Source: the human T2T-CHM13v2.0 reference genome, Homo sapiens | Assembly: GCF_009914755.1 (NCBI RefSeq) | Contig: NC_060931.1 | Reading direction: 5' to 3' (one strand) | DNA: 64,000 nt | Notes under the pieces: model-generated | Told to the model about the DNA's origin: nothing | Database searches by the model: none | What the model saw: the letters and a program-made list of their open reading frames with translations, nothing else | Translations under genes and position numbers: made by a program | In this document: positions 9,358-12,635 of the stretch, one piece after another | How the letters are laid out: every line of letters begins with the position of its first letter | Numbering within the stretch: position 1 is the first letter of the stretch

Positions 9358-9958
9358 TGTTGGGGTGATTGGACCCAACACCAGGTCATGGGGGTGACGA
9401 AGTCTGGCAGAGTCAAAGGAATGAGAAAAGACAGTTTGAGAGAGAAAGTGGGCCCAGGGGTCCAACGTGAGTATGGAGGCTGCGAAGGTCCCAAGCTCTG
9501 GAAGCCCAGACTATTTATTGGTGATCAAACAAAGAAACAGGTGGTGAGAATGTGGGGTTGAAAGGGAGTATTGCATTAAGCACATGATTTACAGCTGTGA
9601 TGGTTTAGCATATGCTCTGCTACTTGAGATAATGGAGAGAAGGTTCTTCTAACTCAAGACACAATCGATCCTGGGAGAGCAAGAAGCAAGGAGCCAGCAT
9701 CTAGACACATTCCAGAGGCCATGAGGGGTTTTATGCCCTGAGCCCTGGATTCTATCCAAGCCACGAGGGGTTTTATCCCCTGGGCTTAGATTATGGTGCA
9801 TCAGGGTAGCCTTCCACCCTTTAGCACAGAGCTTGGTGTTCCAAAGGCCAAGAGAGGTTTCAGACCCCGGACCCTGGACAGGTTCCAAGATTTTTTTACA
9901 TTATGTCAGACATGCAAGCCCTGCCTCAGTTTTTCCCAACACTCAGCTTTTCCCAACA
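9358..9958 (-). repeat. 3' LTR (LTR14-like, 601 bp)
   Basis: Minus-strand start TGTTGGGAAAAGCTGAGTGTTGGG; AATAAA polyA signal (TTTATT at ~9514-9519); preceded on the minus strand by PPT GAAAAAGAAAAGGGGGGTA (~9959-9977). Confidence 0.9.
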
Positions 9959-9959
9959 T

Positions 9960-10400
9960 ACCCCCCTTTTCTTTTTCATAAAACCACCACAGCTATCATT
10001 GCTTGTTCTTGATGGCAGCTTTCTCTTCAGAGGCGGTTTCCTCTTCAGAGGCAGCTTCTGAATCTGCAGACTAAAAGGAGACAGCACAAGCACACAACAA
10101 CCAGAAAGAAACCCACAATGTAGAGCCTCCAATGGCCTTCAACTATAAATCTTTTGGAACGGGATAAGAGTTTTTTAAGGATCTCAGTTACAATATAAAT
10201 ACTTGGTGATGTTTCCCATAGTCTATTTAGAGACAGAGGGATCAAACTCCTTCCCTGGCTTTAATTATCAAGATAGTTATATTTTTATCAAAGATTGAAT
10301 TAATGCAGGTAAACAAGCAACATTCAGGGCATGTAATAAAGTGTGTATTATATCAAGAGTAACATTTCCTATTGCTAGCACGACTTTGAATCCAAAAGGT
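9960..10400 (-). pseudogene. env: Internally deleted HERV-K env remnant (SU end, furin site, membrane-spanning segment)
   Basis: Minus-strand translation across a frameshift gives TCPECCLFTCINSIF...[40 protein letters not shown] then [11 protein letters not shown]. This resembles HML-2 env ([20 protein letters not shown]...RSKRFI; VCLFCLLLVCR). Confidence 0.85.
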
Positions 10401-10544
10401 CCTGCTGGAGAGAAAAGAAAGAGCATTTTCATCCTTACCTCCTTCCCCTCTATTCCTTTTATATTTGCCCTCTCAGATTTTGATTGGACTTTGAGCCATA
10501 GCTAATTTCCATAATTCAGAATGTTCTTGTCTGTCCCTGCAAAT

Positions 10545-10940
10545 CTCTGCTTGTCTTTGCTAGTCTCTACCTTTGTACCTCTTTAGGGCACTGACCAGTA
10601 CCTCTTTAGGGCACTAACCTTATATTGCTAGTCTTTGCTTTTGTACCTCACTGACCAGTACCTCTTTAGGGCACTGACCAATACCTCTTTAGGGTACTGA
10701 CCTTATATTGCTGGTCTTCATCTATCCGTATCTGTCCCTGTCTGTCCCTATGGTACCTGTTAGTTCCTGTGAGTTCCTGCAAGTCCCTGTCTTTTCCTAC
10801 CTATCTCTACTTATCTCTATCTCTACTTACTTATCTCTATCTCTATTTACCTCTATCTCTATCTCTATCTCTAGTTATGTCTATCTCTGTCTCTATTTAT
10901 CTCTATCTCTATTTATGTCTATCTCTACTTACTTATCTCT
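10545..10940. repeat. Tandem ~23-bp repeats plus (TCTCTA)-rich low-complexity tract inside the provirus
   Basis: GTACCTCTTTAGGGCACTGACCA-like units at 10575-10705; TATCTC/TCTCTA/TACT repeats at 10800-10940. Confidence 0.85.
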
Positions 10941-11678
10941 ACATCTTCCTGGAAACCTTTTTTATGACCCACATCAGCATCATCTTCAATTTCCTGGAAC
11001 GAATTGTTGATCATGGCAATTAACATATTTAGCAAAACAATGACCATTGTAACATTACAGACTCCATAAAGAACATAACCAATGTTTTCAATGAATTTGT
11101 GGTTATAGTTGATGATCACTGATTTCACTTCAGAAAGTCCAAATATAGCCCAGAACATTGTCTTAAAACTCTCTTCAACGTTGTGAAGGCTTCATTTTGT
11201 TTTGCACCAATGTAGTAGGAGTAGAGGTTGAACATTCCAATCATAAAGGCCACAAACACCATAATGAATATGACCATGAACCTGAAGATGTCTTTGACTG
11301 CTCCTCCAAGTGACATCTGCAGAGGTCCAAAGCTTTCATTTGCTGGCAAAATACAAGCTATCCCAGAGAAACTCAAAACCACAGCAACTGCACAAAGACC
11401 TTCAGACACCACCCAAGGATCAGAGGGGACCCACTCCCTCCTGGCCAAATTGTAGTATTTCACATTATCTCCCAGTGTTACTTCTGTCAAGTCCTTCAAA
11501 GTATCATTTGCATCAATGATGCTTTGGGCTTTGGAAGCATGCCAGAACGCCCTGAATCTTGCAATGAACAATGCTGTGAAAATCACTAACATACCAAAAT
11601 CAAGCTATTCCACAACTCAAACAAATATTCCTTGGGGCTTTGAGTCCAAATTTCTTTACATTCAGTCCCATATCATGC
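10935..11678 (-). pseudogene. TRPC6P: Intronless partial TRPC6 pseudogene (transmembrane S3-S6 and pore region) captured by the provirus
   Basis: ORFs 11125-11592 and 10925-11158 give [80 protein letters not shown] and GHKKGFQED, which I recognise as TRPC6 segments. No introns; frameshifts present. Locus number not determinable from sequence. Confidence 0.92.
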
Positions 11679-11859
11679 CTCTGTGCTCATTAAATCTGTT
11701 TTTCCCCAGCAGAAGCAGGTTAACTGTGAAACTGAAGCTTCAAGATGACTTTACTTTCCCAGGCTCCTTCTAAGTCCTCACTTGGTCTTCTTTTTCTCTA
11801 AATGGGGCCTTCTGAATAAACAAGCCTCAGATTCCACTGGGTCTTACCCCATGTCTCAC

Positions 11860-11924
11860 CCTCTTCATAATAAGTGCCTTAAGAAATTCAAGTAAGCAGA
11901 ATGTTTGCTTTCACTTTGTCCCAT
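11860..11924 (-). pseudogene. gag: HERV-K gag 5' stub
   Basis: ACAATGGGACAAAGTGAAAGC encodes MGQSESKHSAYLNFLRHLL*, with the betaretroviral MG myristoylation start. Confidence 0.8.
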
Positions 11925-12051
11925 TGTTACCCTGTTTCTTCCAAGTGCTCAGCTTTCCTGATGAGCTTCTTTCAGTGGTCCTCAGGTGTCCTTTGATGAT
12001 GCATCCTCCACTTTCACATGCTCTAGCATTCCTTCACTGGGGTCTTTGTCA

Positions 12052-12069
12052 CCCCAAGTTGGGCAGCCA
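12052..12069 (-). other. Primer binding site, tRNA-Lys-like
   Basis: Minus strand TGGCTGCCCAACTTGGGG, 4 nt after the 5' LTR; compare the canonical Lys PBS TGGCGCCCAACGTGGGG. Confidence 0.8.
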
Positions 12070-12073
12070 GGAA

Positions 12074-12635
12074 TGTTGGGGTGATTGGACCCAACACCAG
12101 GTGGTGGGGGTGACAAAGTCTGGTGGAGTCAAAGGAATGAGTAAAGACAGTTTGAGAGAGAAAGTGGGCCCAGGGCGCCAACGTGAGTAATGGAGGCTGT
12201 GAAGGCCCTGAGCTCTGGAAGCCCAGACTATTTATTGGTGATCAAACAAAGAAACAGGTGGTGAGAATGTGGGGTTGAAAGGGAGCTTTGCATTAAGCAC
12301 ATGATTTACAGCTATGACAGTTTAGCATATGCTCTGCTACTTGAGATAATGGAGAGAAGGTTCTTTTAACTCAAGATACAATCGATCCTGGCAGAGCAAG
12401 GAGCAAGGAGCCAGCAAGTCTAGACACATTCCAGAGGCCATGAGGGGTTTTATGTCCTGGGCTTACATTATGGTGCATCAGGGTAGGCTTCCACCCTTTA
12501 GCACAGAGCTTGGTGTTCCAAAGGCCAAGAGAGGTTTTAGACCCCGGACCCTGGACAGGTTCCAAGACTCTTTTACATTGTGTCAGACATGTAAGCCCTG
12601 CCTCAGCTTCTCCCAACACTCAGCTTTTCCCAACA
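12074..12635 (-). repeat. 5' LTR (LTR14-like, 562 bp)
   Basis: Homologous to 9358-9958 but lacks one ~40-bp U3 repeat unit. Confidence 0.9.

What the first reader, a model, noticed from the sequence alone, without database searches (positions are those of the whole stretch)
9358..12635. Endogenous retroviral vector that transduced a spliced TRPC6 ion-channel mRNA
Seen in sequence (minus strand): 5'LTR, Lys PBS, leader, ~20 codons of gag, ~175 nt of unassigned sequence, ~745 nt of intronless TRPC6, tandem repeats, deleted env, PPT and 3'LTR, with a 5-bp TSD. There is no polyA tail or separate TSD around the TRPC6 piece. Inference: TRPC6 was captured by retroviral recombination and integrated as part of the provirus with helper-virus proteins, the architecture of acutely transforming retroviruses, rather than inserted later by L1. 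Established knowledge (from memory): HERV-K14I proviruses carrying TRPC6 mRNA portions have been reported, so the class is probably known. It is still the most unusual object in the window.
Basis: partly seen in the sequence, partly recalled or inferred. Interest (0 to 1): 0.8.

Follow-up and report, generated by a model that had tools for sequence, protein, structure and literature searches.

The report
Defective endogenous retrovirus carrying spliced TRPC6
This is a gutted ancient retrovirus copy that picked up a spliced piece of the TRPC6 ion-channel gene and was then copied to more than a dozen places in the human genome; it is a real but already published oddity.

Summary
Window 12635-9358 (minus strand) is a 3.3-kb provirus with two LTRs (K2P 0.058), a tRNA-Lys(CTT)-type primer binding site, about 20 gag codons, a TRPC6 insert, tandem repeats, a deleted env, a polypurine tract and a 4-of-5 target-site duplication.

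It is 185 nt from inside the 6.4-kb intron that precedes the exon starting at residue 504. It is joined at a cryptic CAG|GT donor to four canonically spliced exons (residues 504-800). There is no poly-A and no separate duplication around the insert.

The T2T genome holds at least 14 loci with the same TRPC6/virus junctions. Eleven complete ones have eleven different 5-6-bp duplications and unrelated flanks. The element was therefore transduced by retroviral recombination and spread in trans by helper proteins.

New details:
- Both junctions lie in short microhomologies.
- The gag frame stops at the junction, so TRPC6 was untranslated cargo.
- Derived forms include seven shorter copies and a chr19 copy that keeps only 60 nt of TRPC6 intron.
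- This copy has a private 147-nt deletion.

The class was published in 2005 (Flockerzi et al.; the paper could not be read here).

The parts
12074..12635 (-). 5' LTR (562 nt, TGTTGGG...CCCAACA), with one copy of a ~42-nt U3 repeat unit
12051..12069 (-). Primer binding site of tRNA-Lys(CTT) type, decayed: one extra base and two mismatches against 18
11864..11924 (-). gag start: ATG plus about 20 codons. Codon 20 is TGA here and CGA in three of the four PAR2 rows
11859..11863 (-). 5' crossover zone GAGGG, shared by gag (AAGAGGGGGAG in copies with normal gag) and the TRPC6 intron (GGAGGGTGAG)
11679..11863 (-). Segment A: 185 nt from inside the TRPC6 intron that precedes the residue-504 exon (C11:101488799-101488615). 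In the gene it ends at a CAG|GTGGGT donor
11445..11678 (-). TRPC6 exon coding residues 504-582 (C11:101486249-101486016); +1 and -1 frameshifts in this copy
11180..11444 (-). Next TRPC6 exon (C11:101483488-101483224)
10985..11179 (-). Next TRPC6 exon (C11:101482047-101481852); its first base is missing in this copy
10935..10984 (-). Remains of the TRPC6 exon coding residues 736-803: the first ~16 nt and the last ~34 nt, with a private 147-nt deletion at 10969/10968. The TRPC6 part ends 7 nt before the exon's end, in AGAGAT
10532..10934 (-). Tandem-repeat block: AGAGATA-type, 20-mers and 23-mers. Absent from ordinary relatives of this virus; 85-91% like a stretch of another ERV-K-like family
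10140..10531 (-). env surface-subunit remnant (matches L045 5807-6217 of an ordinary provirus)
9977..10139 (-). env C-terminal remnant. About 486 nt, including the GP41-like part, is deleted between this and the previous piece
9961..9976 (-). Polypurine tract AAAAAGAAAAGGGGGG
9358..9958 (-). 3' LTR (601 nt), with two copies of the ~42-nt U3 repeat unit
9353..9357 (-). Downstream target-site copy CATGA (the upstream copy CATGG is at 12640-12636)

Best explanation
The element is a replication-defective, betaretrovirus-like (HERV-K-type) provirus. Its coding region was replaced by about 1.08 kb of TRPC6 RNA in a founder virus. It was then packaged, reverse-transcribed and integrated with proteins supplied by intact relatives. 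It keeps only the cis parts needed for that: two LTRs, the Lys primer binding site, the leader with the first ~20 gag codons, and the polypurine tract.

Shown:
- The TRPC6 part is an RNA product. Four junctions fall exactly on GT/AG sites of the gene.
- Its ends are not mRNA ends. It starts inside an intron and stops 7 nt before an exon end.
- Both virus/TRPC6 junctions lie in short shared motifs (GAGGG and AGAGAT).
- The same junctions occur at at least 14 loci that have independent 5-6-bp duplications.

Inferred:
- The junctions arose by template switching of reverse transcriptase.
- The most likely source RNA (my odds about 55%) was a read-through or fused transcript from a provirus sitting in that TRPC6 intron. 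It was spliced from a cryptic donor to the downstream exons, as in the classical model of oncogene capture.
- TRPC6 was untranslated cargo. The gag frame ends in TGA at the junction, and all 12 other aligned rows share a +1 frameshift near codon 788.
- Later recombination with helper genomes produced a shorter seven-locus lineage and a chr19 form that retains only 60 nt of TRPC6 intron.

This copy integrated roughly 14-22 Myr ago, from an LTR K2P of 0.058 and recalled rates of 0.13-0.21% per Myr. It has since decayed.
For: Anatomy of the window copy.

Whole-genome search: the TRPC6 gene matches piecewise at C11:101.48 Mb, and there are many LTR-flanked relatives.

Splicing:
- Maps of five copies onto the gene show five collinear segments.
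- Gene context shows CAG|GTGGGT after segment A and AG...GT around each exon.
- The corrected spliced reference translates to residues 505-800 without a stop.
- Matches to solved TRPC6 chains place the exons at residues 505-581 and 736-803. They also place the upstream canonical exon's end (G504) about 3.9 kb upstream of segment A.

Shared junctions: 16 rows.

Independent integration:
- Of 11 complete loci, 6 have exact 6-bp duplications, 2 have exact 5-bp ones and 3 have one mismatch. All 11 differ.
- Flanks are unrelated.

Viral identity:
- Relatives encode Gag_p10, dUTPase and RVP.
- An ordinary relative encodes HERV-K_env_2, and GP41 below its cut-off.
- At least 30 ordinary proviruses lack the TRPC6-intron piece.

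Other:
- Microhomology at five junctions.
- Tree: the short lineage is monophyletic (100/98) and the tree is star-like, with end branches of 0.03-0.05.
- LTR K2P ranges 0.058-0.126 over 13 rows.
Against: - The window copy's duplication is imperfect (4 of 5).
- Assignment to HERV-K14I/HML-1 and LTR14 could not be tested.
- LTR ages of 14-48 Myr depend on recalled rates. The window copy's 14-22 Myr is younger than the ~39 Myr that a review table gives for HML-1.
- No other primate genome could be searched, so no ortholog dating was done.
- Read-through origin is not shown. No LTR remnant lies within 4.2 kb upstream of segment A in today's gene, although none is expected if the event happened in one ancestral cell.
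- The order of forms (long form first, chr19 and short forms derived) is an argument from the contiguity of segment A, not a dated tree.
- The repeat block next to TRPC6 is of uncertain origin.
Confidence: 0.9

Rival explanations
1. The capture was retroviral, but the source RNA was an ordinary TRPC6 transcript isoform that happened to include segment A as a cryptic or alternative exon. It was co-packaged by chance, and two template switches inserted it. No provirus near TRPC6 was involved.
For: - Segment A ends at a good donor (CAG|GTGGGT), so it could act as an exon.
- Both junctions show microhomology, as expected for copy-choice between two co-packaged RNAs.
- No LTR remnant lies near segment A today.
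Against: - The 5' boundary of the captured piece has no AG acceptor immediately upstream of it in the gene.
- Intron sequence at the 5' junction is the classical mark of capture from a read-through or fused transcript (established knowledge, recalled).
- No tool here shows that segment A is ever used as an exon.
Confidence: 0.3
2. A TRPC6 processed pseudogene was inserted by LINE-1 into an existing provirus. That provirus was later transcribed and spread.
For: The TRPC6 exons are spliced, as in any processed pseudogene. RefSeq labels the piece a pseudogene.
Against: - No poly-A, no 3'UTR and no duplication flank the insert in the window copy.
- The insert ends within a coding exon at about codon 801 of 931.
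- It starts with intron sequence.
- The viral sequences on its two sides are not adjacent in the virus (gag codon ~20 versus env), so several kilobases were replaced, not interrupted.
Confidence: 0.02
3. The many copies arose by segmental duplication of one chimeric locus, not by reintegration.
For: - The X and Y copies in the terminal pseudoautosomal region are near-identical (0.2-0.3%).
- The two loci there differ internally by only 0.7-1.2%.
Against: - 11 of 11 complete loci have their own duplication and unrelated flanks.
- Even the two pseudoautosomal loci have different duplications (GTTTT versus TCTGCC) and different LTR lengths.
Confidence: 0.02

Closest known systems
HERV-K14I (HML-1) proviruses carrying TRPC6 mRNA portions: Flockerzi, Burkhardt, Schempp, Meese, Mayer, J Virol 2005;79:2941
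   Same: As far as I recall, this is the same family: LTR14-flanked HERV-K14I variants containing part of TRPC6 mRNA that formed new proviruses. The title phrase 'mobilization of other cellular sequences' was seen in reference lists. RefSeq's names TRPC6P and TRPC6P2/P3 point the same way. One open paper mentions 'TRPC6P2 with ERVK' (passages only).
   Different: I could not read the paper (not held), so I cannot say which of these points are in print:
- the intron-derived 185-nt segment with its cryptic donor
- the microhomologies at the junctions
- the stop codon at the gag junction
- the chr19 60-nt 'scar' form
- the T2T copy list
Acutely transforming retroviruses (v-src, v-myc, v-abl type)
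   Same: - Cellular exons without introns replace viral genes between intact LTRs.
- The genome is defective and spreads with helper virus.
- The 5' junction involves intron sequence and both junctions lie in short homologies.
(Features of that class are recalled knowledge.)
   Different: - No gag-cargo fusion or other evident open frame. TGA lies at the junction, and all 12 other aligned rows share a frameshift.
- The cargo is an internal channel fragment (residues 504-800), not a growth-control gene.
- It is fixed in the germ line at many loci rather than found in tumours.
Non-autonomous ERVs mobilised in trans (mouse ETn by MusD; recombinant koala retrovirus, PMC6112702)
   Same: An internally replaced element keeps LTRs, primer binding site and packaging region. 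It reaches a copy number comparable with or above that of its helper. The koala paper's abstract (listing) describes recombinants that are then mobilised.
   Different: Here the replacing sequence is a spliced host gene fragment rather than another repeat. The helper and the activity have been extinct for tens of millions of years.
LINE-1-made processed pseudogenes (including HERV-W processed copies)
   Same: An intronless copy of a cellular transcript at new genomic sites.
   Different: Full U3-R-U5 LTRs at both ends and 5-6-bp duplications. No poly-A, and the cargo is truncated at both ends.

Membership tests
LTR-retrovirus provirus of HERV-K (betaretrovirus-like) type | Two LTRs in direct orientation with TG...CA ends | tested here: met
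   12635-12074 and 9958-9358, TGTTGGG...CCCAACA, K2P 0.058
LTR-retrovirus provirus of HERV-K (betaretrovirus-like) type | Short (5-6 bp) target-site duplication | tested here: met
   Window copy CATGG/CATGA (4 of 5). Among the 10 other complete loci, 6 have exact 6-bp, 2 have exact 5-bp and 2 have one mismatch.
LTR-retrovirus provirus of HERV-K (betaretrovirus-like) type | Primer binding site complementary to tRNA-Lys | tested here: met
   Compared with a tRNA-Lys(CTT) gene called by ARAGORN. The chr4 copy matches 17 of 18. The window copy has one extra base and two mismatches.
LTR-retrovirus provirus of HERV-K (betaretrovirus-like) type | Betaretroviral genes (Gag_p10 matrix, dUTPase in pro, protease, HERV-K env) | tested here: met
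   Absent from the window copy apart from about 20 gag codons and env remnants. Present in sister and ordinary copies:
- Gag_p10, 1.4e-18
- dUTPase, 1.8e-17
- RVP, 1.3e-14
- HERV-K_env_2, 3e-24
- GP41, 26.1 bits, below the 29.6 cut-off
HERV-K14I / HML-1 with LTR14 | Best match to the Repbase/Dfam LTR14 and HERVK14 consensus | not testable with these tools
No repeat library is available. A review table equates HML-1 with HERV-K14I: about 39 Myr, 68 proviruses.
Transducing (cargo-bearing) defective retrovirus | Host sequence replaces viral genes between the LTRs and has lost its introns | tested here: met
   Four GT/AG-exact junctions
Transducing (cargo-bearing) defective retrovirus | The same virus/host junctions at independent integration sites | tested here: met
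   8 of 16 rows for the 5' junction and 14 of 16 for the 3' junction. Searches show the sites are independent.
Acutely transforming retrovirus | Cargo expressed as a protein (often a gag fusion) that gives a growth advantage | tested here: not met
   - The gag frame reads ...AGA GGG TGA at the junction in all 8 rows that have it.
- The intron segment is non-coding.
- All 12 other aligned rows share a +1 insertion near codon 788.
LINE-1 processed pseudogene | Poly-A tail, 7-20-bp duplication around the insert, and extension to the mRNA 3' end | tested here: not met
   None of the three is present

The most novel reading that the evidence does not exclude
The family is a germ-line fossil series of a whole transduction history.
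1. Capture from a transcript that began in a TRPC6 intron and used a cryptic donor. This favours the read-through/insertional model of gene capture for a primate endogenous virus.
2. At least three later non-homologous exchanges with helper genomes.
3. Stepwise loss of the cargo down to a 60-nt intron 'scar' in a chr19 provirus that otherwise looks viral.
4. A neighbouring repeat block borrowed from a second ERV-K-like lineage.

If these points are not in the 2005 paper, they are new. They would make the old question of how retroviruses capture host genes testable on natural, datable copies.
Probability: 0.3. Interest if true: 0.55.

Novelty: already known. Interest (0 to 1): 0.35.

Why it matters
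Host-gene capture by retroviruses is known almost only from tumour viruses. Here the germ line has preserved the product at many datable sites.

The family shows that an ancient primate betaretrovirus could pick up, carry and spread a host gene fragment that gave it no protein. The intron-derived 5' end, the microhomologies and the derived forms give concrete material for testing capture models.

For annotation:
- The TRPC6P pseudogenes are proviral cargo, not LINE-1 products.
- TRPC6P3 is about 145 nt longer than annotated.
- A chr19 provirus carries an unannotated 60-nt TRPC6 intron piece.

For this window, the finding is real but not new.

Tried and rejected
Literature:
- Reading Flockerzi et al. 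2005 failed. It is not held under its PMC id or PubMed id.
- Full-text searches for HERV-K14+TRPC6 (0 papers), TRPC6+endogenous retrovirus+pseudogene, TRPC6+provirus, TRPC6P terms and TRPC6+HERV (149 papers matched, of which I looked only at the 15 listed titles and abstract openings) gave no open description of the family. The one exception is a mention of TRPC6P2 with ERVK.

Failed or uninformative calls:
- Two translations failed on a wrong frame and were corrected.
- Pfam on the window's own env-remnant frames found nothing (proteins 5-7). The env assignment therefore rests on DNA homology to an ordinary provirus.

Hypotheses considered and rejected:
- An exon-skipping explanation for the missing 147 nt. 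The deletion lies inside one exon, has no GT/AG ends and is private to this copy.
- Segment A being viral and merely shared with the intron. At least 30 ordinary proviruses break exactly at its edges. In the long form it is contiguous as in the gene, and it ends at a donor site.

Dropped rows:
- The chr12 row was dropped from the tree and statistics because my cut included foreign sequence.
- chr18 and chr19 were left out of the TRPC6 alignment because they hold too little TRPC6.
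Full report
**What is there.** On the minus strand, window 12635-9358 is a compact provirus.
- The 5'LTR (12635-12074, 562 nt) and 3'LTR (9958-9358, 601 nt) both run TGTTGGG...CCCAACA. They differ by 31 substitutions in 559 aligned sites (K2P 0.058) and by one extra ~42-nt repeat unit in the 3'LTR.
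- Four bases after the 5'LTR lies a decayed primer binding site. I compared it with a tRNA-Lys(CTT) gene found in the same genome and called by ARAGORN. The chr4 sister copy matches the 18 complementary bases at 17 positions. The window copy has one extra base and two mismatches.
- gag starts at 11924 and runs about 20 codons.
- A polypurine tract (9976-9961) abuts the 3'LTR.
- The flanks read CATGG| and |CATGA, a 4-of-5 duplication.

- A search of the window's own genome (T2T) and maps onto the gene show five collinear pieces of TRPC6 on chromosome 11:
  - segment A, C11:101488799-101488615
  - four exons at 101486249-016, 101483488-224, 101482047-101481852 and 101481101-101480905
- Matches to solved TRPC6 chains place the first exon at residues 505-581 (G504 is split across the junction) and the last at 736-803.
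- The canonical upstream exon, ending at G504, lies about 3.9 kb upstream of segment A. Segment A therefore sits inside a 6.4-kb intron, 2.4 kb before the next exon.
- In the gene, segment A is followed by GTGGGT (CAG|GT), and every exon is bounded by AG and GT.
- With the boundaries set on those sites, the joined gene segments translate to residues 505-800 without a stop.
Segment A has no other match in the genome outside this family.

**The ends of the insert.**
- At the 5' end, gag (AAGAGGGGGAG in copies with normal gag) and the intron (GGAGGGTGAG) share GAGGG. The crossover lies there.
- At the 3' end, TRPC6 stops 7 nt before the end of its exon in AGAGAT. That motif is also the unit of the adjoining repeat.
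- There is no A-run and no duplication around the insert.
- The gag frame reads AGA GGG TGA across the junction in all 8 rows that have it, so no gag-TRPC6 fusion could be made.

**The family.** I found 14 loci (16 places, counting X and Y).
- Long form: this locus, two loci in the terminal pseudoautosomal region of X and Y, chr5:146.3 Mb, and a truncated copy at chr12:46.9 Mb.
- Short form: seven loci at chr9:113.3, chr7:137.6, chr11:121.3, chr4:188.3, chr5:24.9, chr5:23.8 and chr7:30.7 Mb.
  - It has more gag (Gag_p10).
  - A dUTPase piece is inserted within segment A.
  - It lacks 389 nt of the first two exons and 8 nt at a later exon junction.
- chr19:20.85 Mb has the same gag|segment-A junction but keeps only the first 60 nt of segment A. 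It then continues into dUTPase, protease and pol fragments.
- chr18:72.6 Mb is a rearranged fragment that keeps the 3' junction.
- Junction counts (16 rows):
  - The 5' junction appears in 8 rows; 5 rows continue in gag and 3 had no anchor match.
  - The 3' junction appears in 14 rows.
- Of the 11 loci with both LTRs, 6 have exact 6-bp duplications, 2 have exact 5-bp ones and 3 have one mismatch. All 11 differ.
- Flanks gave a single weak hit among all pairs.
- These are therefore separate integrations of one chimeric genome, not duplications of a locus.
- Because all viral genes are missing or broken, helper proteins must have done the work. At least 30 ordinary relatives with dUTPase exist in the genome.

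**Order of events (inference).**
- Segment A is contiguous only in the long form, exactly as in the gene. The long form must therefore be closest to the founder.
- The chr19 and short forms share a segment-A(60)|dUTPase junction that lies in GGGCCCC. They have further junctions in 4-5-nt homologies.
- I read them as later recombinants with helper genomes.
- The tree of the TRPC6 part (14 rows; chr12, chr18 and chr19 left out) makes the short form one clade (100/98). It is otherwise star-like, with end branches of 0.03-0.05.
- All 12 rows other than the window copy share a +1 insertion near codon 788. The window copy lacks that stretch.

**This copy.**
- Against the gene it has 66 substitutions in 833 sites (7.9%), three single-base indels and a private 147-nt deletion at 10969/10968.
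- Its LTR divergence is the lowest of 13 rows (range 0.058-0.126).
- With recalled rates of 0.13-0.21% per Myr, this gives 14-22 Myr. A review table gives about 39 Myr for HML-1 as a whole.
- No other primate genome could be searched.

**The rest of the element.**
- Window 10531-10140 and 10139-9961 match the env region of an ordinary provirus (L045 5807-6217 and from 6703), with about 486 nt missing between them.
- That provirus has HERV-K_env_2 (3e-24) and a sub-threshold GP41 hit.
- The repeat block at 10934-10532 is absent from ordinary relatives.
- The same block is 85-91% like a stretch of another ERV-K-like family that has a gag zinc finger and a weak dUTPase hit. Its origin is open.

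**How it compares with what is known.**
- The architecture is that of a transducing retrovirus, and membership in that class is met on structure.
- It is not an acutely transforming virus in the functional sense, because the cargo could not be expressed from gag.
- LINE-1 insertion is excluded.
- The family name HERV-K14I/LTR14 could not be tested here.
- The class was published by Flockerzi et al. in 2005. I saw only the title, in reference lists. What I say about its content is recall.
- No open paper describing the family was found.

**Verdict.** The object is genuinely unusual but already known. The intron-derived 5' end, the junction homologies, the untranslated status of the cargo and the derived forms may or may not be new.

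Noticed in passing
window 9700-9785 and 12419-12462; sister loci L023-L025: A ~42-nt U3 repeat unit differs in copy number between the 5' and 3' LTR in all four complete long-form proviruses: window 1 vs 2, PAR2-b 2 vs 3, PAR2-a 2 vs 1, chr5:146 1 vs 2. Both LTRs should be identical at integration. Slippage during reverse transcription, or later, is the likely cause.
   Followed up: partly
window 10532-10934; L039-L046 (e.g. C11:19.10 Mb, C12:69.18 Mb, C5:21.29 Mb; one copy at C7:151761590-682, 14 kb before the window): The repeat block next to TRPC6 is 85-91% identical to part of a different interspersed ERV-K-like family more than 2 kb long (zf-CCHC_5 1.3e-13, weak dUTPase). Ordinary relatives of the provirus lack it. 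It may be a second borrowed segment.
   Followed up: partly
L021-L024 (X 154.03 and 154.21 Mb; Y 62.23 and 62.41 Mb): The two pseudoautosomal loci have different duplications (GTTTT, TCTGCC) and different LTR divergence (0.105 vs 0.065). Their TRPC6 parts nevertheless differ by only 0.7-1.2%, which suggests gene conversion between loci 183 kb apart.
   Followed up: partly
L036 (C19:20.85 Mb): A provirus with dUTPase, protease and pol fragments carries only 60 nt of TRPC6 intron directly after gag codon ~20. It is a likely 'scar' of the transduced insert and would be invisible to gene-based annotation.
   Followed up: yes
L025 (C5:146.26 Mb): This long-form copy has two internal insertions of 43 and 62 nt. 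They include a 34-nt piece of the first TRPC6 exon in inverted orientation.
   Followed up: no
L033/L034 (C7:30.67-30.68 Mb): This short-form copy is split by an insertion of about 6.1 kb within its dUTPase segment.
   Followed up: no
window 9114-9178: A 21-nt unit is repeated 3.1 times (97% matches) just outside the 3' LTR, in flanking sequence.
   Followed up: no
C4:125.21 Mb and C5:136.75 Mb: Single TRPC6 exons match at 75-76% identity. These are presumably paralogous TRPC genes; I did not name them with a tool.
   Followed up: no
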